Of a stretch of DNA of 64,000 bases, positions 28,883-43,387 are shown one piece after another. Position numbers and translations under genes: made by a program. The stretch is taken from the sequence record KC690136; one strand, 5' to 3'. The notes beneath the pieces are model-generated. The model saw nothing but the letters and a program-made list of their open reading frames with translations, searched no databases and had not been told where the DNA came from. Within the stretch, counting starts at the first letter, position 1. Each line of letters begins with the position of its first letter. This DNA is from Escherichia phage JES2013.

Positions 28883-28906
28883 CAAAATATCAAATTTAAG
28901 ACACCT

Positions 28907-28933
28907 AGGACGCTCTGTGGCGTCCTTTTCTTT
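28907..28933 (+). terminator. intrinsic terminator
   Basis: AGGACGC-TCTGTG-GCGTCCT followed by TTTTCTTT. Confidence 0.65.
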
Positions 28934-29095
28934 ATCTGGTGCACGATTGCATACCTTGGACAGATAATCTCCTTACAGAGCGTTTAAGAGCTTCCTACAA
29001 ACAACTCTCTTTTTCGAGCGTAGCGAGAACGCACGTCCGTTTTGACCAAAATCACCATACGCTCGGATTTTAACCAAACCCTCGCGGCGTTTCTG

Positions 29096-29124
29096 TTGAC
29101 ACATTGCCGCTCCAGTGATAATAT
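29096..29124 (+). promoter_or_regulatory. sigma70-type promoter
   Basis: TTGACA (29096-29101), 16-17-nt spacer, GATAAT/TAATAT. Confidence 0.5.
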
Positions 29125-29144
29125 CCACACATCATTTGGAGAAT

Positions 29145-29246
29145 ATGGAATACACAATGAAAACATTGTCCGAAGTTTTAGTGGTGATCCTGATGATCAT
29201 TACGTCCATAGCGGCTGTTGCCGGAATACTCACGGGTGGAACATGA
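29145..29246 (+). CDS. small hydrophobic peptide (33 aa)
   Basis: GGAG RBS then ATG 29145; MEYTMKTLSEVLVVILMIITSIAAVAGILTGGT. Confidence 0.35.
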   Translation: MEYTMKTLSEVLVVILMIITSIAAVAGILTGGT

Positions 29247-29455
29247 TCAACACACATGCATCTGAAGAGACATCAAAAGGAGTGACTATATGTCCCTTGG
29301 CTGAGCCAGTGAAAGAGGAAAACTTCGATTCTGAAGATTCTCCATCTTCGCTCCAGGTAGACCCTGAGGCTGATGACCTAACGTGGGAAGACATCGTAGA
29401 TATCTGGTTCTCTGTTATGCCTGAGCACGAAGAGTTCAGGGGTGGTAGACTATGA
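29243..29455 (+). CDS. small acidic protein (70 aa)
   Basis: Internal ATG of track ORF 29042-29455; the upstream part overlaps a promoter and the small peptide gene. Confidence 0.3.
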   Translation: MINTHASEETSKGVTICPLAEPVKEENFDSEDSPSSLQVDPEADDLTWEDIVDIWFSVMPEHEEFRGGRL

Positions 29456-29495
29456 AGCACCGAGCCCACACAAGTTCCTCATGCTAAAGCATGGC

Positions 29496-30682: not shown

Positions 30683-31210
30683 TCAGCCAGAAATATCTGA
30701 ATGGACCCAATTCTGCCCTGTTATGAGCCGTAGCGACTGGAGTGCTGCCAGGCGGACGAAATGGGAATACTTCTCATTCTTATAACAATTCTCAAATATC
30801 GAGGCAGTGAGGCAAATTAATAGGTAAGGCCGTTCACATAGTGGCACAACATTTGCAGTCTATCTGATGTGGTTGAATGAGAATACCTATCATTGTGAGA
30901 ATAGTTATCATTACGGGCAATTTAACATAATACCCATTATGCGCACCACTGGCGATACATACAGGGATTGATAACATGAGTTACTGTTTACGCATATAAC
31001 AATTATATTTCTTATCATTTGTGTGGGATATAGTTAGCAGCCGATAGATTAGATATTGACCTGCGGACTTCTGACCGTCTAGACGTCTAAACGCCCACAC
31101 AACAAGGCTTATACATACATCGCTGAATGTAAACATGGCCGCAAAAATGCTACCATACAAGATTGTAAATTTTTCATGCAGCACTTGACAAAGAGGAGAA
31201 AAACTTGTCT

Positions 31211-31440
31211 GACACTTTAGACATACTGGTGACACAATATGACACTTTAGACTTAATTGACATGCCTGACTGTTTACGCTGTCACTATTCGCGCTATTAC
31301 TATTCACTCCCTTTACTGTTCACGCTCTTACTGTTTACATGCTTAATGGTTTACATGCTTAATAGACTGCATGTCTAATAGTTTACATAGCTAACTGTTC
31401 ACATACTTATCATTTACATGATTGACTGTTTACACAGAGA
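31211..31440. repeat. iteron-like array: GACACTTTAGAC x2, about 8 copies of TGTT(T/C)ACA, 16-bp tandem GTTTACATGCTTAAT
   Basis: Direct repeats read in sequence (31211-31222, 31241-31252; 31273-31435). Confidence 0.55.
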
Positions 31441-31447
31441 TGATAAG

Positions 31448-31731
31448 CCATGACATTCGTTTGCATGACAATAATTAACAAGATAACAATTGACAAGCTA
31501 ACAGCCAACAAGCTGACAATTAACTTGTTTACAATAGATGACATAATATAAAAGCAGGGCAACTATTAGAAGATCTATAGTTGCCTTGCTTGTTATGTCA
31601 TGATTAACTAAATACAAGGCAACTATGATCTGATTAATAGTTTGCAAACAAACTATCACGGGGGTGATGGTTACTGCTTTTATATTATGTCGCGACTCCG
31701 TCGCGCCATGCCATTCGTTTGCATAGTTGCC
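31448..31731. repeat. GGCAACTAT inverted/direct repeats and duplicated GCCATG(A/C)CATTCGTTTGCAT
   Basis: Palindrome GGCAACTAT-N10-ATAGTTGCC (31558-31586); further copies at 31618, 31723; 19-bp repeat at 31448-31466 and 31706-31724. Confidence 0.5.
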
Positions 31732-32340
31732 TTATTGTTACAGATAAAATAATTGTATTGTTAATTATTTCTTATCTTTCTATTAGTCATCTAATGATTC
31801 CAGTCAATATAGTAATGTACAGTAAACATTAGACGACTAAAGATTTATCTGCTTATAATAACTTACCGTGACAATTTCGGACTGTTTACGAAAAATGTTG
31901 GCACCTAAGCTGATTTATGTTATGCAGTTTACACGAATAATTATTTTATGCAGGTATTGACTATTCCATTATTCTATGGTTGGAATAAATACTTAGCAGA
32001 CTATAGAATGGTGAGCGTACGTAAATTCTGAGATCTGGCGGCTATAGTTATACTCGATTTTTCACGTAGAGCACGCTTTTGTGGTTATGTAAGTGTATGA
32101 CTTATAAAGATTTTTAGTTGTTGACAAGACACTGAAGATATGCATCAGGTTAAATTTTGTGCAATAGCTGCATTACGTGCAATTTTGGAAGGAAAAACGG
32201 GTAAAAATAGCCCTGCTACCACACAATGAAAAGTTATGCAATAGTTATTTTACATGTATATTTGTACAGTGTGTGGGGTTGATGGCTCGTCAATTATTCC
32301 ACTTGCCAGGTAGGGCCGTTTATGGTAGGGGGAAGATCAG

Positions 32341-32367
32341 ACAAAAAGAAAGGGGCCTAAGCCCCTT
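32341..32367 (-). terminator. intrinsic terminator ending the - strand block
   Basis: Minus strand: AAGGGGC-TTAG-GCCCCTT followed by TCTTTTTGT, just after stop of 32386-32805. Confidence 0.65.
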
Positions 32368-32385
32368 GATAATTCAGTTAAAAAA

Positions 32386-32805
32386 TTATAATGATTCGTA
32401 TATTTCAAAAATCCGATTTGCCAGGTCGTTACGGTACCGGAATTTTTCATCACGTTTGATCATAAGATCTTTATAGCCGTACTCTTTAAGCACTTCATTA
32501 ACTTTATGGCGGCACACCTTCATATTATCCTGAGCGTCACCAATAAACCTGTTGCTATGGTGCATGGCTTTAATTTCTTCTTCCAGGACCAGGGCAACTA
32601 TGCGGACCGGATCAAGCTGATAGGCGGTAACATCAATGCGGCATTGTAAACGGCTTTTTACGTCTGCCACCGGATATACTGCAACCTCTTCCCCGTCAAC
32701 ATTGACAATAATTAGTTTACCATCGATTTCGAATCCTTTCGCCGCCGGACCGTGACAAAAAGCGTTATCAAAGCTATATGCCGGATTATTAGATTTAATG
32801 TTCAT
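32386..32805 (-). CDS. hypothetical protein
   Basis: Track ORF; AGAGGTAAAAACACC RBS; last gene of - block. Confidence 0.5.
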   Translation of the reverse strand: MNIKSNNPAYSFDNAFCHGPAAKGFEIDGKLIIVNVDGEEVAVYPVADVKSRLQCRIDVTAYQLDPVRIVALVLEEEIKAMHHSNRFIGDAQDNMKVCRHKVNEVLKEYGYKDLMIKRDEKFRYRNDLANRIFEIYESL

Positions 32806-32950: not shown

Positions 32951-33214
32951 TTATTTGTTATTCATCCAGTTTTCCCAAGCTGCCTGATAATCTGCTTCAC
33001 TGCGGCGGATCTCTTCTTGCTCTTCAAGTCGGATCTCTTCTTCCAGGTACCCCAGGATATCGGCTTTTTTGGTCTGGCGTAACATCCAATCATCTTTTTT
33101 ACGGGTAAAGATCTTATATGCTTTCTCGCAAACCTCTTTTTTGCTACCTTTTTGGACTTCAAGAACTTTGTAGGCCATGTACTGAACTAGTTTGAGCTGA
33201 TCAAGACGTTTCAT
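32951..33214 (-). CDS. hypothetical Lys/Glu-rich protein
   Basis: Track ORF. Confidence 0.45.
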   Translation of the reverse strand: MKRLDQLKLVQYMAYKVLEVQKGSKKEVCEKAYKIFTRKKDDWMLRQTKKADILGYLEEEIRLEEQEEIRRSEADYQAAWENWMNNK

Positions 33215-33274
33215 GATGTTTACCTCTTTATGCGGTTCTGATTAGTGGGCCTTTTGGCCCGTGTCATTATCTTA

Positions 33275-33547
33275 TTACTTATGGCGGCAGAATTCAAGCG
33301 TTTTTAATTGATAATCTTCCTCAGCCTGGAGTACGACCGCCTCGATCATTTCGTTGGCATTGTTAAAGCCATAACCTTTAGCGAAATCATCCGCGCCACC
33401 TTCGTGATCATGTTCTGCGTTCATCGCTTCCACAAAATGGAATTCCAAATTGTTGAGGTAGGGGCTTGATGTTCCGTCCTCTTTTTCGATGAGATCCCAA
33501 ATAGCATTAAAACGTGATTCTACTTCTTGATTAATCCAGCTTGACAC
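33275..33547 (-). CDS. hypothetical acidic protein
   Basis: Track ORF. Confidence 0.45.
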   Translation of the reverse strand: MSSWINQEVESRFNAIWDLIEKEDGTSSPYLNNLEFHFVEAMNAEHDHEGGADDFAKGYGFNNANEMIEAVVLQAEEDYQLKTLEFCRHK

Positions 33548-33758
33548 AGTGTTTTCCTCTCTTCTGGTTGTTGTGTGGGCACTTTTGCCCCTTCAAGATA
33601 AATGTTACCCCACCCCATGGCAGATGTCAACGGTTTTTATAGTTCTTATATGACAGGCAGGCCCGGTGATTGTCTCCCCCCGTCGCCAGGTGCCTGCCGT
33701 GAAACAAGTATAACAAAAAACAGGACCATTGCAAGCCCTGTTTTGTAGTTTATAAATA

Positions 33759-33950
33759 TTATATTTTTTCGCCTATGTAGTCCGGTCGGTTTTTCTCTGT
33801 CATGCGCTTTAGCAATTCTTGCATGTTGCTTATGGCTTGTAGTGTATCCCCTTCCAGGCTTGAATCGACATAATCAGGATCGTCTATGACCTTTCTATGA
33901 TTATGATAACGCAGTACCGCCAATACCTTTCTGACTTGTTCGATATTCAT
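33759..33950 (-). CDS. hypothetical small protein
   Basis: Track ORF. Confidence 0.4.
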   Translation of the reverse strand: MNIEQVRKVLAVLRYHNHRKVIDDPDYVDSSLEGDTLQAISNMQELLKRMTEKNRPDYIGEKI

Positions 33951-34099
33951 TTTTACCGCTCTTTAAAACAAGGTGCCAACCGTTTCCAATAGATCACTGA
34001 CTGCCAGGACAATACCGATCAGCACATATCTAACCATAAGGGGAAAGAGCGCCAATATTGCCACCACAATCCCCAAGGTGATAATTATCTTTCTCATGG

Positions 34100-34393
34100 T
34101 TAACGGTTCACGTAAGTTTTCCCGTTCACGGTTATGGGCAGATCCTCCAGGTCTGGATCTTCCTTAAGGTCGCGAGCAAGCTCACCGCACCGGATACCCT
34201 CGAATCCGTAGTACTCTGTTGTGCCGTCCTTAAAAGTTTTAGCGGCAAGGCATAAGCGATAAGTAACCCCGATTTGATTGACGGCATGAATATCCGTTAG
34301 ATTAACCTCTTTTGCCAGCTCTTTAGCCATTACAGGCGCATTAAGTCCAACAACCAGGGCAACCACTGCGATCATCTTTTTCATTGTGTCCAT
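34100..34393 (-). CDS. secreted/periplasmic small protein
   Basis: N-terminal signal peptide MKKMIAVVALVVGLNAPVMA. Confidence 0.5.
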   Translation of the reverse strand: MDTMKKMIAVVALVVGLNAPVMAKELAKEVNLTDIHAVNQIGVTYRLCLAAKTFKDGTTEYYGFEGIRCGELARDLKEDPDLEDLPITVNGKTYVNR

Positions 34394-34475
34394 CCTCTTT
34401 CTGCTACGTTTAAGGCGGCGGTAACCGCCTGTTTATGCTTTGTTGGTTAATTTTCGGGTATAGGTATAAATTAAA

Positions 34476-34691
34476 CTATGCTGTACGCTCAACTATAACA
34501 ACGGCTTGAGGGATCTCACCTTCAACCACTATCAAGGCTTTTTTCTGCGTGATAGATATCTTTACCCGCTTCAGCGTGGCGGTAAAATCTTTCATTTCGT
34601 CACGTGGTGTTTTAGTGCAATACCAGATCTCAGGCTTGCCGATCTGTAAGTTGCGTAAAAATTCTGTTTTGCCTGTTTTGTTAGTGATCAT
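34476..34691 (-). CDS. hypothetical small protein
   Basis: Track ORF. Confidence 0.4.
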   Translation of the reverse strand: MITNKTGKTEFLRNLQIGKPEIWYCTKTPRDEMKDFTATLKRVKISITQKKALIVVEGEIPQAVVIVERTA

Positions 34692-34700
34692 TTGGCAACC

Positions 34701-34805
34701 TCACCCGATACCGTTGGAAGACAAGATCGCATTAGCCATGGTTGCAATCAGGCCAATACCCAGGGCAATAACCAAGATCACTGCATCGATTAATTTCTGT
34801 TTCAT
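34701..34805 (-). CDS. small hydrophobic peptide (34 aa)
   Basis: ATG at 34805; single TM helix; weak RBS. Confidence 0.25.
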   Translation of the reverse strand: MKQKLIDAVILVIALGIGLIATMANAILSSNGIG

Positions 34806-34882
34806 GGTGTTTATTCTCTTCTGTTAGTAACCTTATTCATGGGGCCGCTACCACAGCCCCAAGGTAAGGCAGCTATGTGCTT

Positions 34883-35128
34883 TTAGTGTTTCATTCCAAC
34901 CATCGCGGCACGGATCGCCGTAGTGCTGTACTTGAAGCCGTCCGGGGTCTTATCTTGTCCGGTTAGCTCCAGAAAAAGCATCATATCCCGCGCCGCATCA
35001 TTACGATTAGCATTGGCGTTAATAAAGCCTTGGGCCAACCGGTACAATGACTCATCGTTATTAATCCAAAGGCTTACATTCCAATGAGTTTTGTTTTTGT
35101 AACCGTTATAACCTTTATTGCTTTTCAT
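34883..35128 (-). CDS. hypothetical protein
   Basis: Track ORF; AGAGGTAAACACC RBS. Confidence 0.45.
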   Translation of the reverse strand: MKSNKGYNGYKNKTHWNVSLWINNDESLYRLAQGFINANANRNDAARDMMLFLELTGQDKTPDGFKYSTTAIRAAMVGMKH

Positions 35129-35219
35129 GGTGTTTACCTCTTCTTTGTTCCAGGTGGCGGATCATTCTACCACCTTATGTATTATGCTTTGTTAGATGGT
35201 TGTTTGTTGTCAAACTATT

Positions 35220-35399
35220 TTACCGATAATCATCATATGCTTTATTTACCTGGCGAATATAACATTCAAAAGCCAAATCAATAGATTTATATTCACGGAT
35301 ATACTCACCATAGGAAACCACATACATTTCTATAGCTTCCTCATATGCGAGGAGAATAGAATCTAAGCCTACGATCTCAGTCTTTGCAATAATAGCCAT
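35220..35399 (-). CDS. hypothetical small protein (59 aa)
   Basis: AGAGGA RBS then ATG 35399; just under the track's 60-aa cutoff. Confidence 0.4.
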   Translation of the reverse strand: MAIIAKTEIVGLDSILLAYEEAIEMYVVSYGEYIREYKSIDLAFECYIRQVNKAYDDYR

Positions 35400-35475
35400 G
35401 ATTTTTTATCCTCTTTGTGGTTGGTGGGGTTCGTTGCCCCCTTTGATTTATATATTACAGTCTTATATGGTCATG

Positions 35476-35709
35476 TCAACTATTTTCAAAAAATTTTTCT
35501 GCTGTGATATTCTTCCCGGTAGGGTTCGCTACTTTCAAAATTTTATCATGCACTGGACGCCCAAAAGAATAAGCGCCGTACACAGTAAACCAATAATCGC
35601 CGTCAGGTTGTACTATTACTGCCGCATATGGTACGCCTTTTTCGTTTTTGCTGACAAAATAGATCACGTTGCCATTAATAGCCTCGGCGCGTTTAATTTG
35701 TTCCATCAT
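35476..35709 (-). CDS. hypothetical protein
   Basis: Track ORF. Confidence 0.45.
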   Translation of the reverse strand: MMEQIKRAEAINGNVIYFVSKNEKGVPYAAVIVQPDGDYWFTVYGAYSFGRPVHDKILKVANPTGKNITAEKFFENS

Positions 35710-35765
35710 GATGATTTGCCTCTCTTTATTTTCATAATTGGGGGGCCTTTTCGGCCCCGCCAGGT

Positions 35766-36116
35766 TTATTTATTGATAGCGTGCAGCGGGAAAGGTACGC
35801 CAGGTTGATAGATAACCTTTACAACCTCATCAGGACAAAAGAAGTTGCAGAACTCACCGCAATAGGCCTCATCCTCTTTCAACTCTTCATCAACATACTC
35901 AAAAAAGTAGTCGATGCTTGGATAATCTTGACCAGGGTTATAATCAACCATAGTGAGGACCAGTTCAAGATCATTGCGGATGATATGCATACCAGCTTTT
36001 AAATACTTCGCTTCCATTTTTACTACATCGCCAGCGGTAACAATAGCCATGGTTTTAACTCCTGTTTCTGTTAATGATTGGAGGCATAACCCCCCTCGAC
36101 AACTCTTATTATCCAT
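35766..36116 (-). CDS. hypothetical protein
   Basis: Track ORF. Confidence 0.45.
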   Translation of the reverse strand: MDNKSCRGGLCLQSLTETGVKTMAIVTAGDVVKMEAKYLKAGMHIIRNDLELVLTMVDYNPGQDYPSIDYFFEYVDEELKEDEAYCGEFCNFFCPDEVVKVIYQPGVPFPLHAINK

Positions 36117-36275
36117 ATTGTAGGGCTTGATGCAAGTACTTCTTTAAAAAATTTTTAAGTGCCTTGGAGGCCGCTGTAACGCCAAAATAATAAAGGCCAT
36201 GCAACCGCATAGCCTTTATGTGATTATATCGCTGCAGGCCCTGCTAGGGGCCTTATTTTGCATCATTTGCCGGAA

Positions 36276-36584
36276 CTATACAGAGAAAACATCGTTCACA
36301 ATAGCGATCACAATGCCGCCCACCTTGTCACGGTCAACAATGCACAAATCACCATAGATCATGTGGTAGTCTGGATGATCTTTCACGGAATAGTCAATGA
36401 GCGTTTTCTTGTCGTCCAGCTTTGTAACTTCCATTCTCATAACGATATGAGAATCATCAAAGGCATTATTCCGAAAAGTCATAGCCTGACCACCAGGGCA
36501 CCCAGTGATCTCCACTTCCACACCGTCTACGATCTGACCATCAAAGAAATAAAGATTATTAGCCAGGATAAACATGTTTATCAC
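36276..36584 (-). CDS. hypothetical protein
   Basis: AAGGAG RBS before ATG 36584. Confidence 0.5.
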   Translation of the reverse strand: MINMFILANNLYFFDGQIVDGVEVEITGCPGGQAMTFRNNAFDDSHIVMRMEVTKLDDKKTLIDYSVKDHPDYHMIYGDLCIVDRDKVGGIVIAIVNDVFSV

Positions 36585-36623
36585 TCCTTGTTAACTGCGT
36601 GTTATTTTACCACGATTAAAATT

Positions 36624-36668
36624 TACTTTACTGATGGCCCTGGCGTCAAGGCCATCTAAAAATAAATT
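36624..36668 (-). repeat. 45-47-bp repeat with hairpin GATGGCC...GGCCATC, copy A
   Basis: TTTACTTTACTGATGGCCCTGGCGTCAAGGCCATCTAAAAATAAA; directly after stop of 36668-36868. Confidence 0.6.
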
Positions 36669-36868
36669 TACAGGCCTACAATCTCTTTGATTCGTTTAAC
36701 TGCTGCCTCAGCGCCTTGGGGGTAGAAATTATGGTAACCGATCACGCGAGTGATACTAATCGCAGTTTGATGATCTTCATAATAGCCCTTGAAGATTTCT
36801 TGACCGTCAATCAGCACGGCAATTTTTTCTTCTTTTTTGAAGTTAATAACGCGGATATTGTTGCTCAT
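36668..36868 (-). CDS. hypothetical small protein
   Basis: Track ORF. Confidence 0.45.
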   Translation of the reverse strand: MSNNIRVINFKKEEKIAVLIDGQEIFKGYYEDHQTAISITRVIGYHNFYPQGAEAAVKRIKEIVGL

Positions 36869-37009
36869 TTTGTTTCTCCTTTCTGGTTTTTGTGTTGGTG
36901 GGGATTAGCTCCCCGTTGATTATTATTATCCATATTTCGGACCGGATTGCAACACCCCGGAAGAAAAATTTTTTGAAAAAGTTAGGCCCCCAGGGATCGG
37001 GGGCCGTTA

Positions 37010-37129
37010 TCAGTTACTTACAGCGATAAAATACATCCCTACGCCTAACAATATTTCAAGGGCGATGATCTCAAGCCATACCATAACCCGGCGCACCTTA
37101 TCGGTGCGGGGCTTATCCTTGGTTGTCAT
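37010..37129 (-). CDS. small membrane peptide (39 aa)
   Basis: GGGGGAG RBS then ATG 37129; C-terminal TM helix. Confidence 0.3.
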   Translation of the reverse strand: MTTKDKPRTDKVRRVMVWLEIIALEILLGVGMYFIAVSN

Positions 37130-37371
37130 CGTCTCCCCCTTTCATCCTGGTAGTAGTGACGTGGTTTACAATGGCCCCCAGGAGTACCATCACCACGCAC
37201 ATCACAAGAAAAATTATCTCTGTCGTTGTTCGATCCATTGTTATAAAATTCCTTAAGATCAGGCCTGAAAATAAAGCGTTCGTTATTGAATCCATCACGC
37301 CAGGCGGCTGGCTTCAAATCTTCATCAAAGGGATTAATTAACGTGGTATTATTTAAACGGCTGGCCCACAT
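37126..37371 (-). CDS. hypothetical Asn/Asp-rich protein
   Basis: ATG 37371 (internal to track ORF 37126-37389). Confidence 0.35.
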   Translation of the reverse strand: MWASRLNNTTLINPFDEDLKPAAWRDGFNNERFIFRPDLKEFYNNGSNNDRDNFSCDVRGDGTPGGHCKPRHYYQDERGRR

Positions 37372-37720
37372 ATTTTCTATTCCTCTCAAATAGGCGATCC
37401 GCCTCAGTTAAACAAATCTCATGGGCGTGATCTCTGGTTTTAGCTTCATCGAAAACCTGTTGTGCAAGGCTGCAGCGTAGGGAGACTGGAAGATCACTAT
37501 AATAGGCGTTGACAAATGTTTGCGCGTCATACAGGTCGGAAAATACTTTACCCTTTCTATTATCGCCTTTGTCAACAATTGCAAGGATAACAAGTACAAT
37601 AGTTGCAACCACCCCCAGGAAAATAGATATAATAAACCATAAAAAGGCGGATCTACCCATCTTGCCAGCGATCCAGGCGTTAAACAAGGCAACTAATACG
37701 GCCAAAATAATAAATTCCAT
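37349..37720 (-). CDS. membrane protein (two TM helices)
   Basis: AAGAGGT RBS then ATG 37720 (MEFIILAVLVALF). Confidence 0.5.
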   Translation of the reverse strand: MEFIILAVLVALFNAWIAGKMGRSAFLWFIISIFLGVVATIVLVILAIVDKGDNRKGKVFSDLYDAQTFVNAYYSDLPVSLRCSLAQQVFDEAKTRDHAHEICLTEADRLFERNRKYVGQPFK

Positions 37721-37784
37721 TCTATGTACCTCTTTTGCAGTTCTGTTTAACAATAAGGCGGCAAATATGCCGCCTGTTACCTGA

Positions 37785-38165
37785 TTAAAAATTATCGCCG
37801 TAAATCTTTCCGCTTTCTGCCCACACCACCACGCGGGGCATACTATCCCACACGTCTTGTTTTAGATTGAGCGCGTGCAATTCTTCGGTGGTGCCCATAC
37901 CAGGCACGGGCTGATTGTATACTGCAAAACGACCACCTGCATAATCATAGGCCAGGGTTAAATCACACTGAATCATCTTTTTGATCATGGCGTTGAGCAT
38001 AGCGTTAGCCGCATACTGGTCACGTTTTAAAGGCAACTCTTTGATTAGTTTGCGATAGTTTTCAATGTGATCGCACACTGTTTCACGTGGAAGATCTTTC
38101 ATATCCTCGCGAAAGGTAACCAGGTTAAACATAACGGTGTCAATAGCTTTAGTAGTGTTTTTCAT
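37785..38165 (-). CDS. hypothetical protein
   Basis: AAGAGGAAAA RBS; 5' hairpin upstream. Confidence 0.5.
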   Translation of the reverse strand: MKNTTKAIDTVMFNLVTFREDMKDLPRETVCDHIENYRKLIKELPLKRDQYAANAMLNAMIKKMIQCDLTLAYDYAGGRFAVYNQPVPGMGTTEELHALNLKQDVWDSMPRVVVWAESGKIYGDNF

Positions 38166-38256
38166 AATGTTTTCCTCTTTGTTTTGTGTGGGGCAAACGT
38201 CTTGCCCCCCCTTGAGTTTTAATATAGCAAGTTTTTAGATTATTGCAACACTTTAT

Positions 38257-38880
38257 TTATGAAAAACTCATCTCTCCATATTCATCCACATCAAACCGCC
38301 AATCATTGGCCTCAATAAGGCCGATCAGGTTTTCGGTAGTGAACTGTTCTAGATAGGCCTCCTCCAGGTCTACGTAAACCTTGCGGGATAGCTCCCGTAC
38401 CGTCTCGGTGATCAGCTCTTCCAGGTCTTCCACTTTGTTTTCTTGTTTGGCGGTCAGATCTAGCCAGGTGGTATCAATGTATCCGCTTACAGTGTTTTCA
38501 TGGCTGTAATGGCTGTACTTGTCGCGTTCAATACTGGCTGATAACTCGCCATCGTGCATTGTGCCAAACAAGTGACGAATTGATCGGAACTTGGTCAGGG
38601 CCTTTACTTTACGCAAGAATTTTTCTAAATCCACGTTTTCAGCACTGATTGACGCGCCGTCACCCTGGCACCAAAAGCCGGACCAATGTACATCGGTATC
38701 TTCAAGGCCGTACTCTGGAAAAACTTGCTCTTTATAATATTCAATTACACTTTCTGCGAAAAAATCCTCTCCGCTGTGTTCTTCTCTTTCGCGGACCATT
38801 TCAATAGCTTTTTCTTTTTGTTCGTCGGTCAGCACGTCGAAAGATAAATTGCAACCTGTGGTAATGTTAACGGTGGTCAT
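38257..38880 (-). CDS. hypothetical acidic protein
   Basis: Track ORF; promoter and 5' hairpin upstream. Confidence 0.5.
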   Translation of the reverse strand: MTTVNITTGCNLSFDVLTDEQKEKAIEMVREREEHSGEDFFAESVIEYYKEQVFPEYGLEDTDVHWSGFWCQGDGASISAENVDLEKFLRKVKALTKFRSIRHLFGTMHDGELSASIERDKYSHYSHENTVSGYIDTTWLDLTAKQENKVEDLEELITETVRELSRKVYVDLEEAYLEQFTTENLIGLIEANDWRFDVDEYGEMSFS

Positions 38881-38937
38881 GATATTTTCTCCTGTTTTCT
38901 TTGTTAGTGGCGGGAAGTTTTCCCGCCTGTGTTTTTA

Positions 38938-38965
38938 ATTATACTTATTGAGATTTACTTGTCAA
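38938..38965 (-). promoter_or_regulatory. sigma70-type promoter (minus strand)
   Basis: Minus strand TTGACA (38965-38960), 16-nt spacer, TATAAT (38943-38938); 5' hairpin 38909-38927 follows. Confidence 0.55.
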
Positions 38966-39215
38966 CACTATTTTTTAAATTATTGTGGCGCAAAATGTTT
39001 AAAATCTCTTCAACGTCATCAACACGGCGGCAATTTTTAAACGCTACCAATTGCCCCATGATTTTAATCACTGGGCGGCCTTGCCAGTGCCCCTGGAGAA
39101 AGCGCGCCTTGACTTTATCAGTGGAACTATCACGCCACCAAACGGCCTTGTTATTGCAGTAGTAAAAATTATTCAGGACAATATCAACTTTATCAAAATT
39201 TTTTAATTTACGCAT
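38955..39215 (-). CDS. hypothetical protein
   Basis: Track ORF. Confidence 0.45.
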   Translation of the reverse strand: MRKLKNFDKVDIVLNNFYYCNNKAVWWRDSSTDKVKARFLQGHWQGRPVIKIMGQLVAFKNCRRVDDVEEILNILRHNNLKNSVDK

Positions 39216-39250
39216 AGTGTTTACTCCTTCCTTCTTGCTTTGATGTGGTT

Positions 39251-39279
39251 AGTATATCCGGACTATTCCAAGGTGTCAA
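39251..39279 (-). promoter_or_regulatory. sigma70-type promoter (minus strand)
   Basis: Minus strand TTGACA (39279-39274), 17-nt spacer, TATACT (39256-39251). Confidence 0.45.
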
Positions 39280-39460
39280 GCTTTAAATAAAATCACTGTC
39301 AATGATATTTTTAACACCATAAAACGGCCCTGGGTGATGTTTTCAGGCTAAGAAAGGGGATTGCATAGGTAGGGGCTTTTGTGGCGTTTGTGGGGCCAAC
39401 CAGGGGCGCTATTCGTAGGATAGAAATAAAAAGCCCCGCACAATGGCGGGGCGTTGGTTG

Positions 39461-39658
39461 TTATTTGTCTTTATGGCGGTATCGTTCCGCTTGTCGTTCA
39501 CGTTCCAAAAGTAGGCCCGGCAATTTACGATCATAATGATTCCGCCAGATCTTCCCAAATCTTTTTGGCTTATTCAGTTTATTGTTGCGCTGGCGGCGTT
39601 CCGGCAACTCTTCGGAATCATGAGATCGCTTTACAATTTTCTCAAAATTAATCTTCAT
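39461..39658 (-). CDS. small basic protein
   Basis: Track ORF; Arg/Lys-rich. Confidence 0.4.
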   Translation of the reverse strand: MKINFEKIVKRSHDSEELPERRQRNNKLNKPKRFGKIWRNHYDRKLPGLLLERERQAERYRHKDK

Positions 39659-40020
39659 ATATTCCCACCCTTGCTAACTTCAATATTGGCCTGAATCGCC
39701 CGGATACGGCGTTTTATAACCTCCTGATCCGTGCAATCGTATCCCCAAAAGTCTACAATTTTCGCGCCGCCAGCTTTTAAGCGGTATAATGTTTCTTGCA
39801 TTTTGTAAGCTGGGATCGGTCGCGGTGTTACCTGGTCGCCTTTTTCATCCTTGTACTTGATTATGTAGTCCTCGTTGTCGTTGAATACCCAAAAAGGGTA
39901 CTCTGTAAGGGCGTTGCTTTCTTTTTCGTTTTTAGATTGGATCTTGTTTACAATTAAAGCCGTAGCAATAGCGCCAATAATAAAACTAGCCCCGCTGATC
40001 ATGTTACTTTCTCCTTTCAT
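39655..40020 (-). CDS. membrane-anchored protein
   Basis: N-terminal TM helix. Confidence 0.45.
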   Translation of the reverse strand: MKGESNMISGASFIIGAIATALIVNKIQSKNEKESNALTEYPFWVFNDNEDYIIKYKDEKGDQVTPRPIPAYKMQETLYRLKAGGAKIVDFWGYDCTDQEVIKRRIRAIQANIEVSKGGNI

Positions 40021-40077
40021 TGTGTTGATAAACTATCTTTATAGATGGCCCTGTTACCAGGACCACCGAAAAAATAA

Positions 40078-40323
40078 CTATTTCACAATGCCTACAAAAC
40101 AGATCCCGCCTTCACCTATATAGGCAATATCGGTAATTTTATAATTTGTCAAGATCCGCGTGTTCAGATCATTAATAAAATCGGTCATCGCGTTGGTGTA
40201 GTTGTCTTCCGTGTCTAAGGCATAATCCCAGGTGTAAACCTTTTTACGTCCGAAGCCTTTTACCATGATACGGGCGCTTTTGGTGTTGGTAGGGGCATAA
40301 TATTTGGTGATTAGTGCTGCCAT
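40078..40323 (-). CDS. hypothetical protein
   Basis: Track ORF; GAGGAG RBS. Confidence 0.45.
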   Translation of the reverse strand: MAALITKYYAPTNTKSARIMVKGFGRKKVYTWDYALDTEDNYTNAMTDFINDLNTRILTNYKITDIAYIGEGGICFVGIVK

Positions 40324-40366
40324 GGTTTTAACTCCTCTGAATTAGTTCAGTGTTAACAGTATAAAG

Positions 40367-40413
40367 TTTACTTTATTGATGGCCCTGAAGTCAAGGCCAT
40401 CTAAAAATAAACT
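40367..40413 (-). repeat. 47-bp repeat with hairpin GATGGCC...GGCCATC, copy B
   Basis: TTTACTTTATTGATGGCCCTGAAGTCAAGGCCATCTAAAAATAAACT; directly after stop of 40413-40754. Confidence 0.6.
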
Positions 40414-40754
40414 TACTCGTTTTCTTCCAGCTCCGCAAGCTCTTCTTTTGCTTCTTCTAACTCTGTCTGTAGTTCCTGGTATTCTTCATCGTCCTCAATA
40501 TCCAGGCTGTCGATGTAGTCGCTAAATCCGCAGCGGTAAGCGATAGGATCTAGCTCCTTGAGGATACGCGACGGAAGAAAAGAAATGTTTCCGATCATAA
40601 TTTCGCCGTAGATCTCGTCTAACCATTCATCATAGTTTTCGTCGTACTTGTCCTCGTCGATTTCAAAGTTATCGATCTTGTTCTCAAGGTCTGCGATCTG
40701 TTTTTTCAGCGCGGCGATCTGCATAGCTTTTTCTGCGGCGGTCATAGTAGTCAT
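40413..40754 (-). CDS. highly acidic coiled-coil protein
   Basis: Track ORF; Asp/Glu-rich. Confidence 0.5.
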   Translation of the reverse strand: MTTMTAAEKAMQIAALKKQIADLENKIDNFEIDEDKYDENYDEWLDEIYGEIMIGNISFLPSRILKELDPIAYRCGFSDYIDSLDIEDDEEYQELQTELEEAKEELAELEENE

Positions 40755-40805
40755 GGTGTTTTCTCCTTTTGTGTGCTCTGGGAAGTTTTCCCGTTTACGT
40801 GTTTA

Positions 40806-40833
40806 AGTATAGCGATCTAAGTTAGTTTGTCAA
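40806..40833 (-). promoter_or_regulatory. sigma70-type promoter (minus strand)
   Basis: Minus strand TTGACA (40833-40828), 16-nt spacer, TATACT (40811-40806); hairpin 40780-40792 in 5' UTR. Confidence 0.45.
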
Positions 40834-40953
40834 TTAAAAATTTAAGAAAAATTTTGCAAAACTGTTAGCGCTACTCATTAACATTTGCGCCAGGATGTAA
40901 CCAATGATGCAAACGATAATAGTTACCTTTGTGTGCTGGCGTGTAGTACTCAT
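40834..40953 (-). CDS. small membrane peptide (39 aa)
   Basis: ATG 40953; MSTTRQHTKVTIIVCIIGYILAQMLMSSANSFAKFFLNF. Confidence 0.3.
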   Translation of the reverse strand: MSTTRQHTKVTIIVCIIGYILAQMLMSSANSFAKFFLNF

Positions 40954-40987
40954 CTTTAAGCCCCCCTTTCCGCTCAACTGTGGTTAG

Positions 40988-41034
40988 TTTACTTTATTGA
41001 TGGCCCTGGAGTCAAGGCCATCTAAAAATAAACT
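40988..41034 (-). repeat. 47-bp repeat with hairpin GATGGCC...GGCCATC, copy C
   Basis: Near-identical to copy B (one mismatch in loop); directly after stop of 41034-41429. Confidence 0.6.
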
Positions 41035-41429
41035 CAGTACGTTTTCAGTACTTTCCCGTCCAACCTGTCTAACTGAATCTCAATAGCTGCAGAAAACCTA
41101 TTGTAAACCACATCGCCCAAGGAGTCCAGCCAATCTATAACGTTATACACCTGCTCTTTATTCTTGCAAGTCCGGATCCGTTTCATTACGTAAGACGGAT
41201 CAATATTAGTACTCCCGTTGTTGTGGTCATGCGCCTGGCCTGCTGCACTGGTTATAGATTTTACAACCACCTGAAAGGGCTTTAAGGTGCCTTTTGCGTT
41301 CATCTCACGCGCTTTTGCGGCGCGGTTGTTATATGTTACACAACGGCGGCAAATGTTGAATAAATGCATGTCAATAATTTTTTCATCGTTTGCCAGTTCG
41401 TTCATGATGCGGCGTACGTTCTTATTCAT
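41034..41429 (-). CDS. hypothetical protein
   Basis: Track ORF; 5' hairpin 41447-41464 upstream. Confidence 0.5.
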   Translation of the reverse strand: MNKNVRRIMNELANDEKIIDMHLFNICRRCVTYNNRAAKAREMNAKGTLKPFQVVVKSITSAAGQAHDHNNGSTNIDPSYVMKRIRTCKNKEQVYNVIDWLDSLGDVVYNRFSAAIEIQLDRLDGKVLKTY

Positions 41430-41512
41430 AGCTTTTCCTCTGTGTTGGCGGGATGTTTCCCGCCTTTTGTGTCTAGTTTACTTGAATTTTGCAGCGTGTC
41501 AATAATTTTTTT

Positions 41513-41975: not shown

Positions 41976-42173
41976 TTATTTTTTATTAAACCAGTGATTG
42001 ATCTGACCTTTTGTCAGGGCGCAACGATTAAGCTGTTGCAGGGTATAGCTATGACCGCGACGAAATTTATAAAGGCCTTGCCCGTTGTTGATGGTTACAT
42101 CCACCAGGCAAACCACTTGATCGGTGACCACCTGGCGAGTGTTGCGACGTACTTTGATTCCGTATGCGTTCAT
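41976..42173 (-). CDS. hypothetical small protein
   Basis: Track ORF. Confidence 0.4.
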   Translation of the reverse strand: MNAYGIKVRRNTRQVVTDQVVCLVDVTINNGQGLYKFRRGHSYTLQQLNRCALTKGQINHWFNKK

Positions 42174-42251
42174 GATTTTTTATCCTCTCTGTTAATTAGT
42201 GTGGTGTTGTTCACCTTGCGAGGATAAGAATAACAAGAACTGTCCGAGCTG

Positions 42252-42413
42252 TCAACCATTAGTTAAAATTATTTTTGCCCCTGCCAGGTTAACCATCATT
42301 TTTTCGTACTCTTCTTTATGTTCCAACGCTCCCGCCATAGCCTTTTCAACCAGGGCGATAGCCTCAGCGTCATTAATAGCTACATTTTCCAGGGGGATCA
42401 TATTACCTTTCAT
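42252..42413 (-). CDS. hypothetical small protein (53 aa)
   Basis: GGAGGTAC RBS then ATG 42413. Confidence 0.4.
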   Translation of the reverse strand: MKGNMIPLENVAINDAEAIALVEKAMAGALEHKEEYEKMMVNLAGAKIILTNG

Positions 42414-42945
42414 TTTTGTACCTCCCCTTCAATTGTTACCTATCCTATAGCATAGGCCCACCAGGTTTACAAGCCTTCATTCTCTCCTGCCTGGTCAGTT
42501 AGGTCCTGCCAGGCTGGCCCCGCCAGGTTGCAGCGGTTAGCGCATCAGGTTAGAAAAATTTTTTGAAAAGTGTTGACAGCGGCCCCGCCAGGTGGCACAA
42601 TATACCTATCGAAAGGACGGCAGGCACCGGTGACGGGGGAGGCAACCACCGGGGATGGACGCTGCATAAAATGAGAACGGTTATCATTATCATTTAAAAA
42701 TTTATGCAAAAAATCCTTGCTTTCTTTGTCCTGTGTGATACTATAATAACAAGCCGGGGCAACAGGGGCCGGGAGACAATCACCGGGCCTGCCCGTTATT
42801 CTGCAAACGAGAATGATTATCATTCAAAATTCTAAATGAGAACTCCTCGCATTTAATAAATTTAATTAGCATGCTAATTACCCTCCGTAACAATTTCCTA
42901 TAAAACAGTATCCCATAAAATATTTCCATATAGAAATTTTAAAAA

Positions 42946-43387
42946 TCCATTTCTGAAAACGAAAAATCGATTTCGTCCCCAAAAATTTCAGGTCGAGATC
43001 CGGAACGATTTCCAGAAAATCCGATTTAGAAAACGAAAAACAGATCGAGTACTGAGAAATTTATCGAGAAAAATTTTCAGAAAATTCAATCTTTGAAACG
43101 AAAAACAGATCGAGTACCTGGAAAGCTGCACTGCAACTTCAAGATAGTGGTTAGATTATTACCATAAAAGGTCAAGGGTAAGTGGAGGAAGTTCTAGTAG
43201 AAGGATGTGAGCATGTGTGGGAAATCTATAATGGTGGCCTGGAATATGGTGCAAACGATAGGATGAGTTATTCAGCTTGTCGCGCCTACTCTGAAAAATC
43301 CATTTTAGTTTTCGATCCATTTTCTGATTTTCTAAGAATTTTAAAATATCCAGCCCGGTGAAATATCAAAAGGAGGAAATCCATTTT
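42946..43387. repeat. iteron-like repeats: ATCCATTT(T/C) x4 and 23-bp direct repeat GAAA(A)CGAAAAACAGATCGAGTAC x2 plus a partial copy
   Basis: Copies at 42946, 43298, 43316, 43379; 43029-43052 and 43095-43117; partial 42955-42971. Confidence 0.55.

What the first reader, a model, noticed from the sequence alone, without database searches (positions are those of the whole stretch)
33247..41464. Stereotyped promoter, GC hairpin, RBS layout upstream of many small early genes
Short GC-rich stem-loops sit 20-30 nt upstream of start codons on the minus strand, at 33247-33260, 35740-35758, 36900-36914, 36985-37005, 38190-38208, 38909-38927, 40780-40792 and 41447-41464. Several lie just downstream of sigma70-like promoters (for example 38938-38965). 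This suggests 5'-terminal stabilising hairpins or processing sites.
Basis: partly seen in the sequence, partly recalled or inferred. Interest (0 to 1): 0.45.

Follow-up and report, generated by a model that had tools for sequence, protein, structure and literature searches.

The report
Promoter–hairpin–leader cassettes of early genes
In this rV5-like coliphage many small early genes are preceded by a repeated module (strong host-type promoter, GC hairpin about 10 bases later, U-poor leader, ribosome site) that resembles known mobile promoter/stem-loop cassettes of T4-like phages and known 5' mRNA-stabilising hairpins, so it is real and conserved but not a new kind of element.

Summary
The window is an rV5-like phage (Vequintavirus, 97% to phage navn). 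All eight hairpins exist at the stated coordinates. GC hairpins are 2.3-fold over shuffles and concentrated in intergenic DNA. Five of the eight start 10-13 nt after the -10 of sigma70-type promoters, and five more such units were missed. One (33247) has only a weak promoter, one (35740) has none, and one (36985-37005) is an ordinary terminator. The hairpins are followed by A/C-rich, U-poor leaders, not U-tracts. In 14 relatives the stems persist while loops and sequences change, invert or are replaced. phi92-like and phAPEC8-like genomes carry the same layout. Indel breakpoints between relatives fall in these cassettes. Best reading: PeSL-like mobile promoter cassettes whose stem-loop is transcribed about 3 nt from the predicted 5' end and acts as a structure-only mRNA stabiliser. 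This function is inferred; no TSS or half-life data exist. Rivals are an attenuator, a DNA-level palindrome or operator, and a 3' barrier for the upstream cistron. It is a new member of known kinds, of modest interest.

The parts
41427..41502 (-). Cassette U41429: -35 TTGACA 41502-41497, 16-nt spacer, -10 TAAACT 41480-41475, 10-nt gap, hairpin 41464-41447 (GGCGGGA-AACA-TCCCGCC), leader AACACA, SD GAGG, ATG 41429
   Evidence: Fold -14.3 kcal/mol, z -4.8. In relatives the loop is inverted (AACA/ACA versus TGT) and the stem is kept.
40752..40833 (-). Cassette U40754: TTGACA-16-TATACT, 13-nt gap, weak hairpin 40792-40780 (GGGAA-AAC-TTCCC), leader AGAGCACACAAA, SD AGGAG, ATG 40754
   Evidence: Fold only -5.9 kcal/mol, z -1.0. 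The hairpin is kept in all 15 relatives, including the phi92-like L021.
38878..38965 (-). Cassette U38880: TTGACA-16-TATAAT (12/12), 10-nt gap, hairpin 38927-38909 (GGCGGGAA-AAC-TTCCCGCC), leader ACTAACAAAGAAAAC, SD AGGAG, ATG 38880 (207-aa gene)
   Evidence: Fold -14.6 kcal/mol, z -5.4. The stem is conserved, with a C-to-T change giving G.U in L004.
38163..38248 (-). Cassette U38165: TTGCAA-16-TATATT (TG-extended), 12-nt gap (9-10 in relatives), hairpin 38208-38190 (GGGGCAAG-ACG-TTTGCCCC), leader ACACAAAACAAA, SD GAGG, ATG 38165
   Evidence: z -2.75. L014 carries the exact reverse complement of the hairpin. L019 has a stem lengthened by changes on both arms.
36866..36952 (-). Cassette U36868: TTGCAA-16-GATAAT, 10-nt gap, hairpin 36914-36900 (GGGGA-GCTAA-TCCCC), leader ACCAACACAAAAACCAGAA, SD AGGAG, ATG 36868
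   Evidence: z -2.7. Relatives have GGGGAG-ACA-CTCCCC or GGGGA-GACA-TCCCC instead.
36048..36135 (-).
   Evidence: It is weak in the window (z -0.3). Relatives carry GGGGG-GCGG-CCCCC or GGAGGT-GAT-GCCTCC at the same place, an A-T to G-C exchange in the stem.
35397..35479 (-).
   Evidence: z -1.7.
35126..35213 (-). Unit U35128: TTGACA with no good -10 at normal spacing (promoter uncertain), hairpin 35175-35152 (AGGTGGT...GCCACCT), leader GGAACAAAGAA, SD GAGG, ATG 35128
   Evidence: In relatives the same position holds four other hairpins (GGCGGCA-ATGA-TGCCGCC; GCGGGAA-TAC-TTCCCGC; GGGGC-AAGC-GCCC; extended GGTGGTGG form), and the downstream gene differs.
33545..33630 (-).
   Evidence: z -0.9. 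The hairpin is kept in all 15 relatives.
42171..42255 (-).
   Evidence: (z -1.7). It is kept in relatives.
33212..33297 (-). Unit U33214: only an 8/12 promoter-like site (TTGAAT-17-TAAGAT) that overlaps the upstream stop codon, hairpin 33260-33247 (GGGCC-AAAA-GGCCC), leader, SD GAGG, ATG 33214
   Evidence: (z -2.9). The stem is invariant and the loop varies (AAAA, GAAA, GGGA) in relatives. The junction of the rV5 ORF166 insertion lies in its leader.
35740..35761 (-). Promoter-less intercistronic hairpin (GGCGGGGCC-GAAAA-GGCCCCCC), 32 nt before ATG 35709 and directly after the upstream stop codon
   Evidence: -19 kcal/mol, z -2.8. No promoter of 9/12 or better lies upstream. In L001 and L017 the lower stem is extended by an insertion that pairs with GGCGG.
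34840..34861 (-). Promoter-less intercistronic hairpin (TGGGGCTGT-GGTA-GCGGCCCCA), 34 nt before ATG 34805
   Evidence: T-to-C changes in relatives turn G.U pairs into G-C pairs.
34413..34430 (-). Promoter-less intercistronic hairpin (AGGCGGT-TACC-GCCGCCT), 28 nt before ATG 34384
   Evidence: L018 and L014 carry its exact reverse complement.
36985..37005 (-). Intrinsic terminator of the upstream operon (GGCCCCCG-ATCCC-TGGGGGCC followed by TAACTTTTTC). It is not a leader hairpin.
   Evidence: It lies 116 nt upstream of ATG 36868 and upstream of the -35 at 36952.
40985..41036 (-). Second cassette type ('type B'), copy 1: a two-tier 20-21 bp hairpin whose loop holds TTGAC of a TTGACT-18-TAAACT promoter-like site
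   Evidence: -25.1 kcal/mol, z -6.9; family D1.
40364..40415 (-). Type B copy 2
   Evidence: (z -7.6). The IMG/VR relative L003 has one chimeric copy that joins the left flank of copy 1 to the right flank of copy 2. The two genes between them are therefore gained or lost by recombination between copies.
40030..40081 (-). Type B copy 3 (variant). The -35 is lost, but both stem tiers are kept through G.U and G-C changes.
   Evidence: (-20.5 kcal/mol, z -5.1).
36619..36670 (-). Type B copy 4
   Evidence: (z -6.7).

Best explanation
The features are repeated regulatory cassettes of the early-gene region of an rV5-like phage. In order, each holds an A/T-rich upstream stretch, a near-consensus sigma70 promoter (mostly with a 16-nt spacer) and about 10 nt with a pyrimidine-purine step at positions 7-8, the likely start site. 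Then come a GC-rich stem-loop of 5-9 bp, an A/C-rich and U/G-poor unstructured leader of 6-19 nt, a strong Shine-Dalgarno sequence and the start codon.

Shown:
- The layout and its excess over chance.
- Its conservation as a structure rather than a sequence in 14 Vequintavirus relatives.
- Its presence in phi92-like and phAPEC8-like genomes.
- Gene gains, losses and replacements between relatives that break in these cassettes.

Inferred:
- Host RNA polymerase starts about 3 nt before the stem, so each early mRNA carries a 5'-proximal hairpin.
- This hairpin hinders access of RppH and the 5'-end sensor of RNase E, as for the ompA and T7 gene 10 leaders.
- The U-poor leader offers few RNase E sites and cannot pair with the ribosome site.
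- Together these would give stable, well-translated early messages.

The cassettes are best seen as the rV5/phi92-group counterpart of the PeSL (promoter-early stem-loop) cassettes of T4-like phages. Like them, they also serve as homology patches for shuffling small genes.
For: - Identity: the window is a Vequintavirus (97.2% to phage navn). The region equals rV5 ORF164-198, small hypothetical genes on one strand.
- Excess: 62 GC hairpins against 27.4 +/- 4.7 in shuffles, with 29 in the 16% of sequence that is intergenic. Individual folds reach z -2.7 to -5.4 for the better ones.
- Geometry: nine cassettes have a -10-to-stem gap of 10-13 nt. Twelve cassettes from two phage subfamilies align almost without gaps from the -35 to the first stem base. 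Y7R8 occurs in 69 of 84 unique variants.
- Not terminators: the leaders are A 60%, C 26%, G 7%, U 6.6%, against a background of 32/20/23/25 (p 3e-9 for U). True terminators in the same region do carry T-runs.
- Structural constraint: 18% of stem columns vary, against 45% of loop columns (p 1e-4) and 28% of flank columns (p 0.01). Stems are kept through loop changes, three exact hairpin inversions, an A-T to G-C exchange (U36050), stem extensions made by changes on both arms (U38165 in L019, 35740 in L001) and outright replacement by other hairpins (U35128).
- Two leader classes: hairpin promoters have leaders about 20 nt longer. Seven of nine use a 16-nt spacer, whereas seven of eight hairpin-less promoters use 17 nt and have leaders with 0 to -4 kcal/mol.
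- Other genera: in phi92-like L021 and L022, all 8 and 6 copies of the GCGGGAA-N-TTCCCGC hairpin sit directly after a TTGACA promoter, 9-13 nt after its apparent -10 where measured, and about 20 nt before an ATG. The same holds in phAPEC8-sized IMG/VR contigs.
- Recombination: breakpoints at 33211-33246, 34756-35205, 36263-36283, 39256-39297, 40413-40986 and 42276 fall in intergenic cassettes. There is one chimeric cassette in L003 and a leader junction for rV5 ORF166.
- Known mechanisms: 5' secondary structure stabilises mRNA because RppH and RNase E need single-stranded 5' ends (PMC3997798). The T7 gene 10 5' stem-loop raises mRNA level and expression (PMC6146998). For PeSL structure and shuffling see PMC2839356.
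Against: - No TSS, 3'-end or half-life data exist for any rV5-like phage in the literature searched, so the 5' position of the hairpin rests on promoter geometry alone.
- The predicted unpaired 5' tail is 2-6 nt, most often 3. RppH-type enzymes need only about 2-3 unpaired nt (B. subtilis RppH; assumed similar for E. coli RppH), so protection may be partial.
- A simple stem-loop does not stop RNase E once it is scanning (PMC9943677).
- About half of the strong promoters on the same strand lack a hairpin.
- Similar hairpins occur with no promoter at 35740, 34840 and 34413.
- Inversions and palindromy fit a DNA-level role equally well. The G.U versus A.C mismatch count (15 versus 7, not independent) does not settle which strand matters.
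- In RB49, a PeSL stem-loop was shown experimentally to terminate transcription.
- Several window hairpins are weak (40780: z -1.0; 36080: z -0.3; 33577: z -0.9).
Confidence: 0.5

Rival explanations
1. The stem-loops are attenuators or terminators of read-through transcription from upstream promoters. This is the role proposed and partly shown for PeSL stem-loops in RB49/phi1. Each small gene would then be expressed mainly from its own promoter.
For: The overall cassette matches PeSLs. One RB49 PeSL stem-loop reduced lacZ expression as strongly as rrnB T1. Hairpins also occur between genes without a promoter. Annotators of phage Murica marked some of these sites as terminators.
Against: The hairpins lie downstream of their own promoter, so they would attenuate that promoter's transcripts as well. 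No U-tract follows them: tails are 6.6% U. Real terminators in the same region have T-runs. In RB49 most stem-loops lie between the -35 and -10 and are followed by the U-containing -10 sequence, which is a different position.
Confidence: 0.15
2. The inverted repeats work at the DNA level. They could be palindromes that promote cassette recombination and mobility, or operators bound by a phage or host protein that shuts early promoters off. The RNA hairpin would be incidental.
For: Breakpoints between relatives fall in the cassettes, and one chimeric cassette exists. Three exact hairpin inversions are typical of palindrome dynamics. In phi92-like phages the same 21-nt palindrome GGCGGGAAATGGTTTCCCGCC recurs at about +4 to +24 of six to eight promoters, as an operator would. 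The wobble test does not favour the sense strand clearly.
Against: In the rV5-like genomes at least six unrelated stem sequences occupy the same position, so no single sequence-specific binder fits. The centre-to-centre spacing changes by 1 nt in the window copy of U41429 without loss of the element. G.U pairs are kept in several stems and in the type B variant. The fixed distance to the start site, the U-poor leader and the Shine-Dalgarno spacing point to a transcript-level design.
Confidence: 0.15
3. The hairpins are intercistronic 3' barriers. After endonucleolytic cleavage of polycistronic early RNA in the leader, the stem protects the upstream cistron from 3'-5' exonucleases. Under this reading, their position after the promoter says little about function.
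For: The same kind of hairpin follows stop codons where no promoter is present (35740, 34840, 34413, 33247). Orientation does not matter, since inversions are tolerated. Terminators are few in the region, so read-through transcripts are likely.
Against: The leaders downstream are U-poor and so offer few RNase E sites for the required cleavage (the RNase E preference for U is from general knowledge). The -10-to-stem gap is tightly fixed at 10-13 nt in two phage subfamilies, which a 3' barrier does not need.
Confidence: 0.12
4. The stems are terminators for antisense (+ strand) transcription, because the A-rich 10 nt before each stem reads as a T-rich tail on the other strand.
For: The terminator scan flags the + strand versions of 38909, 41447, 34413, 36894 and 35426.
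Against: Most tails are poor (TGTGTTTTT, CTTTGATTT, GTTGATTATT). In phi92-like cassettes the corresponding tail is CTATGTGATAA, which is not T-rich. No + strand genes or good + strand promoters lie in 32-62 kb.
Confidence: 0.03
5. The pattern is a chance by-product of G-runs and C-runs in intergenic DNA.
For: Some stems are short, and dinucleotide shuffles fold nearly as well (40780, 36080, 33577).
Against: There is a 2.3-fold excess over shuffles with an intergenic concentration. The register is fixed. Structures are retained through sequence turnover in relatives.
Confidence: 0.01

Closest known systems
PeSL (promoter-early stem-loop) cassettes of T4-like phages RB49/phi1, PST and nt-1 (Arbiol et al. 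2010, PMC2839356; Comeau et al. 2014, PMC4122927)
   Same: Both have an A/T-rich upstream region, a near-consensus sigma70 early promoter, a GC-rich (polyG/polyC) stem-loop, and a Shine-Dalgarno sequence and ATG at the 3' end. Both are repeated before many small genes of unknown function. Indels and replacements between close relatives break in the cassettes. The PeSL classification already includes stem-loops downstream of the -10 and overlapping the -35, which correspond to the two types seen here.
   Different: The phage lineage differs (Vequintavirinae and Stephanstirmvirinae, not Straboviridae). In RB49 most stem-loops lie between the -35 and -10. Here the main type sits at a fixed 10-13 nt after the -10, inside the transcript, with a U-poor tail, so the terminator role shown for one RB49 PeSL is unlikely. 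Mini-circles were not and cannot be tested here.
5'-terminal stabilising stem-loops of E. coli mRNAs (ompA and papA leaders; Emory, Bouvet and Belasco 1992, as reviewed in PMC3997798)
   Same: Both are a simple hairpin very near the 5' end, upstream of an unstructured leader and ribosome site. Structure rather than sequence matters. The expected mechanism is blocked access of RppH and the RNase E 5' sensor.
   Different: The position relative to the 5' end is only predicted here. The stems are shorter than ompA hp1. The element is multiplied as a cassette across many phage genes. The requirement for no more than about 2-4 unpaired 5' nt is from my own recollection of that literature, not from a text read here.
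T7 gene 10 leader 5' stem-loop (used in pET vectors; PMC6146998 cites it as an mRNA stabiliser)
   Same: It is a phage leader that begins with a GGGAGA...UCCC-type hairpin, followed by an unstructured leader and a strong ribosome site. The stem-loop raises mRNA level and expression.
   Different: In T7 it follows a T7 RNA polymerase promoter and starts at +1. Here it follows host sigma70 promoters and starts at about +4.
Intrinsic (rho-independent) terminators
   Same: Both have a GC-rich stem of 5-9 bp with a loop of 3-5 nt.
   Different: There is no U-tract. The only listed hairpin that qualifies is 36985-37005.
T7-type RNase III processing sites between early genes
   Same: The type B elements form stems of about 20-21 bp with an internal loop between genes.
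   Different: The finding's own hairpins have only 5-9 bp, too short for RNase III. Cleavage of type B was not tested.

Membership tests
PeSL cassettes | Near-consensus sigma70 promoter | tested here: met
   Matches are 9-12 of 12 with 16-17 nt spacers in nine cassettes.
PeSL cassettes | A/T-rich stretch upstream of the -35 | tested here: met
   The 15 nt before the -35 are A/T-rich in the aligned cassettes.
PeSL cassettes | Stable GC-rich stem-loop next to or overlapping the promoter | tested here: met
   Folds are -5.5 to -14.6 kcal/mol at a fixed position after the -10. Type B encloses the -35.
PeSL cassettes | Shine-Dalgarno and start codon at the 3' end of the motif | tested here: met
   The Shine-Dalgarno lies 6-19 nt after the stem and 7-10 nt before the start codon.
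PeSL cassettes | Located among small, variable genes of unknown function | tested here: met
   All neighbouring genes are annotated as hypothetical in navn, rV5, Murica and Gotham.
PeSL cassettes | Indels or replacements between close relatives break in the cassettes | tested here: met
   Recurrent breakpoints fall in the cassettes. There is a chimeric type B copy in L003 and a leader junction for rV5 ORF166.
PeSL cassettes | Stem-loop acts as a transcription terminator or attenuator | not testable with these tools
   The sequence argues against it for the main type, because there is no U-tract, but activity was not measured.
PeSL cassettes | Described host lineage: T4-like myoviruses | tested here: not met
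   The window is a Vequintavirus. The same cassettes occur in Justusliebigvirus and in phAPEC8-sized contigs.
5'-terminal mRNA stabiliser hairpin (ompA / T7 g10 type) | Stem begins within a few nt of the transcript 5' end | tested here: inconclusive
   The predicted unpaired tail is 2-6 nt (most often 3), from the -10 position and the Y7R8 step. No experimental TSS exists.
5'-terminal mRNA stabiliser hairpin (ompA / T7 g10 type) | Structure, not sequence, is what is conserved | tested here: met
   Stems are less variable than loops and flanks. Inversions, replacements and pair-preserving changes occur.
5'-terminal mRNA stabiliser hairpin (ompA / T7 g10 type) | Lengthens mRNA half-life through RppH / RNase E 5'-end dependence | not testable with these tools
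   This needs rifampicin chase experiments with stem mutants in wild type, rppH and rne 5'-sensor strains.
Intrinsic terminator | U-rich tract directly after the stem | tested here: not met
   Tails are ACCAACAC-like, with 6.6% U overall. The feature is met only by 36985-37005.
RNase III site | About 20 bp or more of double-stranded RNA | tested here: not met
   The stems have 5-9 bp. Only the separate type B elements reach 20-21 bp.
Lambda-type nut (boxA/boxB) antitermination site | Conserved boxB loop and adjacent boxA sequence | tested here: not met
   Loops differ between cassettes and invert between relatives. No shared boxA-like motif exists. There are no Rfam hits.
Operator for one sequence-specific regulator | The same half-site sequence at all regulated promoters | tested here: inconclusive
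   It is not met across the rV5-like cassettes, which have at least six different stems. A GCGGGAA/TTCCCGC subfamily is shared by 2-3 rV5-like and 6-8 phi92-like promoters.

The most novel reading that the evidence does not exclude
The promoter-proximal hairpin could be more than a passive stabiliser. It could be a shared recognition mark of a mobile cassette family that spans Vequintavirinae and Stephanstirmvirinae. For example, it could be an RNA tag that lets the phage spare its own early messages while an Srd-like factor boosts RNase E against host mRNA (rV5 gp11 is annotated as an Srd homologue; for T4 Srd). Alternatively, it could be an operator or RNA site for a dedicated early shut-off protein. 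The near-identical GGCGGGAA(A)-N3-(T)TTCCCGCC stems at six to eight promoters of phi92-like phages do not exclude this.
Probability: 0.1. Interest if true: 0.65.

Novelty: new member of a known kind. Interest (0 to 1): 0.3.

Why it matters
If the reading is right, rV5-like, phi92-like and phAPEC8-like coliphages build their early genes from a compact, portable expression module: a strong promoter, a 5' hairpin, a U-poor leader and a strong ribosome site. The module also serves as the homology patch for swapping small genes. This extends the PeSL idea beyond T4-like phages. It also suggests that in some PeSL-type cassettes the stem-loop is a 5' mRNA stabiliser rather than a terminator. These phages are widely used as therapeutic and biocontrol candidates, and the cassettes mark where gene content is most likely to vary between isolates. 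The modules could also serve as natural parts for expression design. None of this overturns current understanding.

Tried and rejected
- Rfam scan of 31.5-43.5 kb at E up to 1 gave only three sub-threshold, unrelated hits.
- A strand test counting G.U against A.C mismatches in stems gave 15 versus 7, but the variants are not independent, so it is inconclusive.
- MAFFT alignments of two orthologous hairpin sets for formal pair counting misplaced gaps in the G and C runs. I therefore used per-sequence folding and column variability instead.
- A search for relatives through the 207-aa downstream protein in IMG/VR found only two close loci. GenBank relatives were fetched instead.
- Literature searches for TSS maps or transcriptomes of Vequintavirinae or Stephanstirmvirinae found nothing relevant.
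- RNase E scanning block by internal hairpins was rejected as a mechanism after reading that orthogonal stem-loops are readily bypassed.
- Lambda nut-like, RNase III and intrinsic-terminator readings were rejected for the main hairpin type on loop variability, stem length and lack of U-tracts.
- N4-type hairpin promoters were considered only from memory and dropped, because clear sigma70 promoters are present and no virion RNA polymerase context is known for this group.

Full report
**Source of the window.** The 8.7-kb stretch matches 287 phage records. The best is Escherichia phage navn at 97.2% over its full length, and most others are Vequintavirus (rV5-like) genomes at 92-95%. In rV5 the region corresponds to ORF164-198, a run of small hypothetical genes on one strand. 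The rV5 genome paper lists sigma70-type promoters and terminators across the genome. It does not mention leader hairpins.

**Check of the observation.**
- All eight stem-loops are at the stated coordinates on the minus strand.
- The example promoter at 38938-38965 is a perfect TTGACA-16-TATAAT.
- On the gene strand of 32-62 kb, hairpins with at least 5 pairs and at least 4 GC pairs number 62, against 27.4 +/- 4.7 in dinucleotide shuffles. Of these, 29 lie in the 16% of sequence that is intergenic.
- Five listed hairpins (41447, 40780, 38909, 38190, 36900) follow a promoter with normal geometry.
- 33247 has only an 8/12 promoter-like site, and 35740 has none.
- 36985-37005 is followed by a T-run, lies 116 nt before the next start and sits upstream of the next promoter. 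It is an ordinary terminator.
- Five further units of the same kind were missed: hairpins 36080, 35426, 33577, 42203 and 35152.

**Anatomy.**
- In nine cassettes the stem begins 10-13 nt after the -10 hexamer.
- Positions 7-8 of that gap are pyrimidine-purine in 69 of 84 unique variants from the window and its relatives. This is the usual -1/+1 preference of E. coli RNA polymerase (general knowledge). The start site is therefore probably about 8 nt after the -10, leaving about 3 unpaired nt before the stem.
- After the stem comes a leader that is 60% A, 26% C, 7% G and 6.6% U, against a background of 32/20/23/25 (p 3e-9 for U depletion). A Shine-Dalgarno sequence follows, 7-10 nt before the start codon.
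- Promoters on the same strand that lack a hairpin have leaders about 20 nt shorter, with no predicted structure. Most use a 17-nt spacer, whereas seven of the nine hairpin promoters use 16 nt. The hairpin cassettes therefore form a distinct promoter subfamily.
- Twelve cassettes from this phage and a phi92-like phage align almost without gaps from the -35 to the first stem base.

**Conservation.** I fetched the homologous region from 14 relatives and aligned each unit.
- A hairpin is kept at the same place in nearly every case, while its sequence changes.
- Loops differ between relatives.
- Three hairpins appear as exact reverse complements in some genomes: U41429, U38165 and the one at 34413.
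- U36050 alternates between GGAGG/CCTCC-type and GGGGG/CCCCC-type stems.
- U38165 in L019 and the 35740 hairpin in L001 are lengthened by changes on both arms.
- U35128 is replaced by four other hairpins where the downstream gene also differs.
- Over all units, 18% of stem columns vary, against 45% of loop columns (p 1e-4) and 28% of flanking columns (p 0.01).
- A test of G.U against A.C mismatches, which could have told which strand matters, was not decisive.

**Other genera.**
- In two phi92-like genomes (Justusliebigvirus), all 8 and 6 copies of a GCGGGAA-N-TTCCCGC hairpin lie directly after a TTGACA promoter, 9-13 nt after its apparent -10 where measured, and about 20 nt before an ATG.
- A pattern scan of IMG/VR found the same promoter-hairpin combination in four large contigs: three of 97-153 kb that carry the phi92/phAPEC8-type hairpin, and the 137-kb Vequintavirus contig already fetched as L004. 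It also found two unrelated chance matches.

**Comparison with known systems.** The closest described elements are the PeSL cassettes of T4-like phages.
- A PeSL has an A/T-rich stretch, a consensus early promoter, a polyG/polyC stem-loop, and then a Shine-Dalgarno sequence and ATG. PeSLs are repeated before small orphan genes and act as recombination sites.
- I read the RB49 region directly. Most of its stem-loops lie between the -35 and -10, and a few lie downstream of the -10 with a CA-rich leader, as here.
- The shuffling role holds here too. Alignment breakpoints between relatives recur at 33211-33246, 34756-35205, 36263-36283, 39256-39297, 40413-40986 and 42276, all in intergenic cassettes.
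- One IMG/VR relative has a single chimeric copy of a second repeated element where the window has two copies flanking two genes. The extra rV5 ORF166 joins within the leader of the 33247 cassette.

**Mechanism.**
- Both RppH and the 5' sensor of RNase E need a single-stranded 5' end, so 5' secondary structure stabilises E. coli mRNAs (review PMC3997798).
- The T7 gene 10 5' stem-loop is used for the same purpose (PMC6146998).
- The fixed register next to the predicted start, the absence of U-tracts, the U-poor leader and the structure-only conservation all fit this role.
- A simple stem-loop does not stop RNase E once it is scanning (PMC9943677), so the effect would depend on closeness to the 5' end. 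That closeness is predicted, not measured.
- The rV5 paper reports an Srd-like protein, and T4 Srd stimulates RNase E on host mRNA. This makes a protective 5' structure plausible but remains speculation.

**Rivals.**
- An attenuator role, as shown for one RB49 PeSL stem-loop, is weakened by the position after the cassette's own promoter and by the lack of U-tracts.
- A DNA-level role (recombination palindrome or operator) fits the inversions and the repeated GGCGGGAA stem in phi92-like phages. It does not fit the many different stems in rV5-like genomes or the transcript-level design.
- A 3' barrier for upstream cistrons fits the promoter-less hairpins but not the fixed register.
- Antisense termination and chance are unlikely.

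**Verdict.** It is a new lineage-level instance of two known things: PeSL-type mobile promoter cassettes and 5' stabilising hairpins. The function is inferred rather than shown.

Noticed in passing
window 40985-41036, 40364-40415, 40030-40081, 36619-36670 (minus strand): There are four copies of a 52-nt two-tier hairpin: a 10-bp GC upper stem, a 2x3 internal loop and a 10-11 bp AU lower stem (-20 to -25 kcal/mol, z -5 to -7.6). The loop carries TTGAC of a TTGACT-18-TAAACT promoter-like site. No T-run follows. It could be an RNase III-type site or the PeSL subclass with the stem-loop over the -35. The variant copy loses the -35 but keeps both stems. Relative L003 has one chimeric copy in place of two copies plus two genes.
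   Followed up: partly
window 41447-41464, 38190-38208, 34413-34430 compared with L004, L014, L018: Exact inversions (reverse complements) of whole hairpins occur between closely related genomes. The loop is flipped and the stem is kept. This looks like palindrome template switching.
   Followed up: partly
window 33650-33678 and 42771-42799: A 29-nt inverted repeat (93% complementary) lies 9.1 kb apart and brackets almost exactly the small-gene region. A third related copy lies near 42610-42660 on the + strand. The copy at 33.7 kb folds into a 7+5 bp hairpin (-23.8 kcal/mol, z -2.1), whereas the others do not fold better than shuffles. Its role is unknown.
   Followed up: partly
window about 42450-43300: This ORF-poor stretch has three imperfect repeats of about 62 nt (42924-43124, containing CTCGATCTGTTTTTCGTTT and GGATTTTCTGGAAATC-like motifs), a 16-pair AT-rich hairpin at 42986-42949 and GC-rich structured sequence at 42420-42550. 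It looks like an origin-like or regulatory non-coding region. There are no Rfam hits.
   Followed up: no
window 34883-35128 (81-aa gene): This small gene shares 84-86% nucleotide identity over about 235 nt with 320-370 kb jumbo coliphages and Salmonella phages, and also matches phAPEC8-like and phi92-like phages. This indicates exchange of single small genes across unrelated phage groups.
   Followed up: no
window about 28000-32400: Gene orientation switches from the + strand to the - strand here. Cumulative GC skew peaks at about 30 kb, and a 1.8-kb stretch (30585-32385) has no convincing minus-strand ORF.
   Followed up: no
window 61043-61059 and 55560-55590 (minus strand): Similar GC hairpins with an A-rich leader and a Shine-Dalgarno sequence occur before larger genes far from the listed region (for example GGGGAGG-CCT-CCTCCCC followed by ACAAAAAACTAAGGAG before ATG 61015), without a well-spaced promoter.
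   Followed up: no
GenBank records MG065677, MG065635, MG065646 (loci L014, L015, L017): Records labelled 'Campylobacter phage' (marked UNVERIFIED) are 92-94% identical to this E. coli Vequintavirus region. The host label looks doubtful.
   Followed up: no
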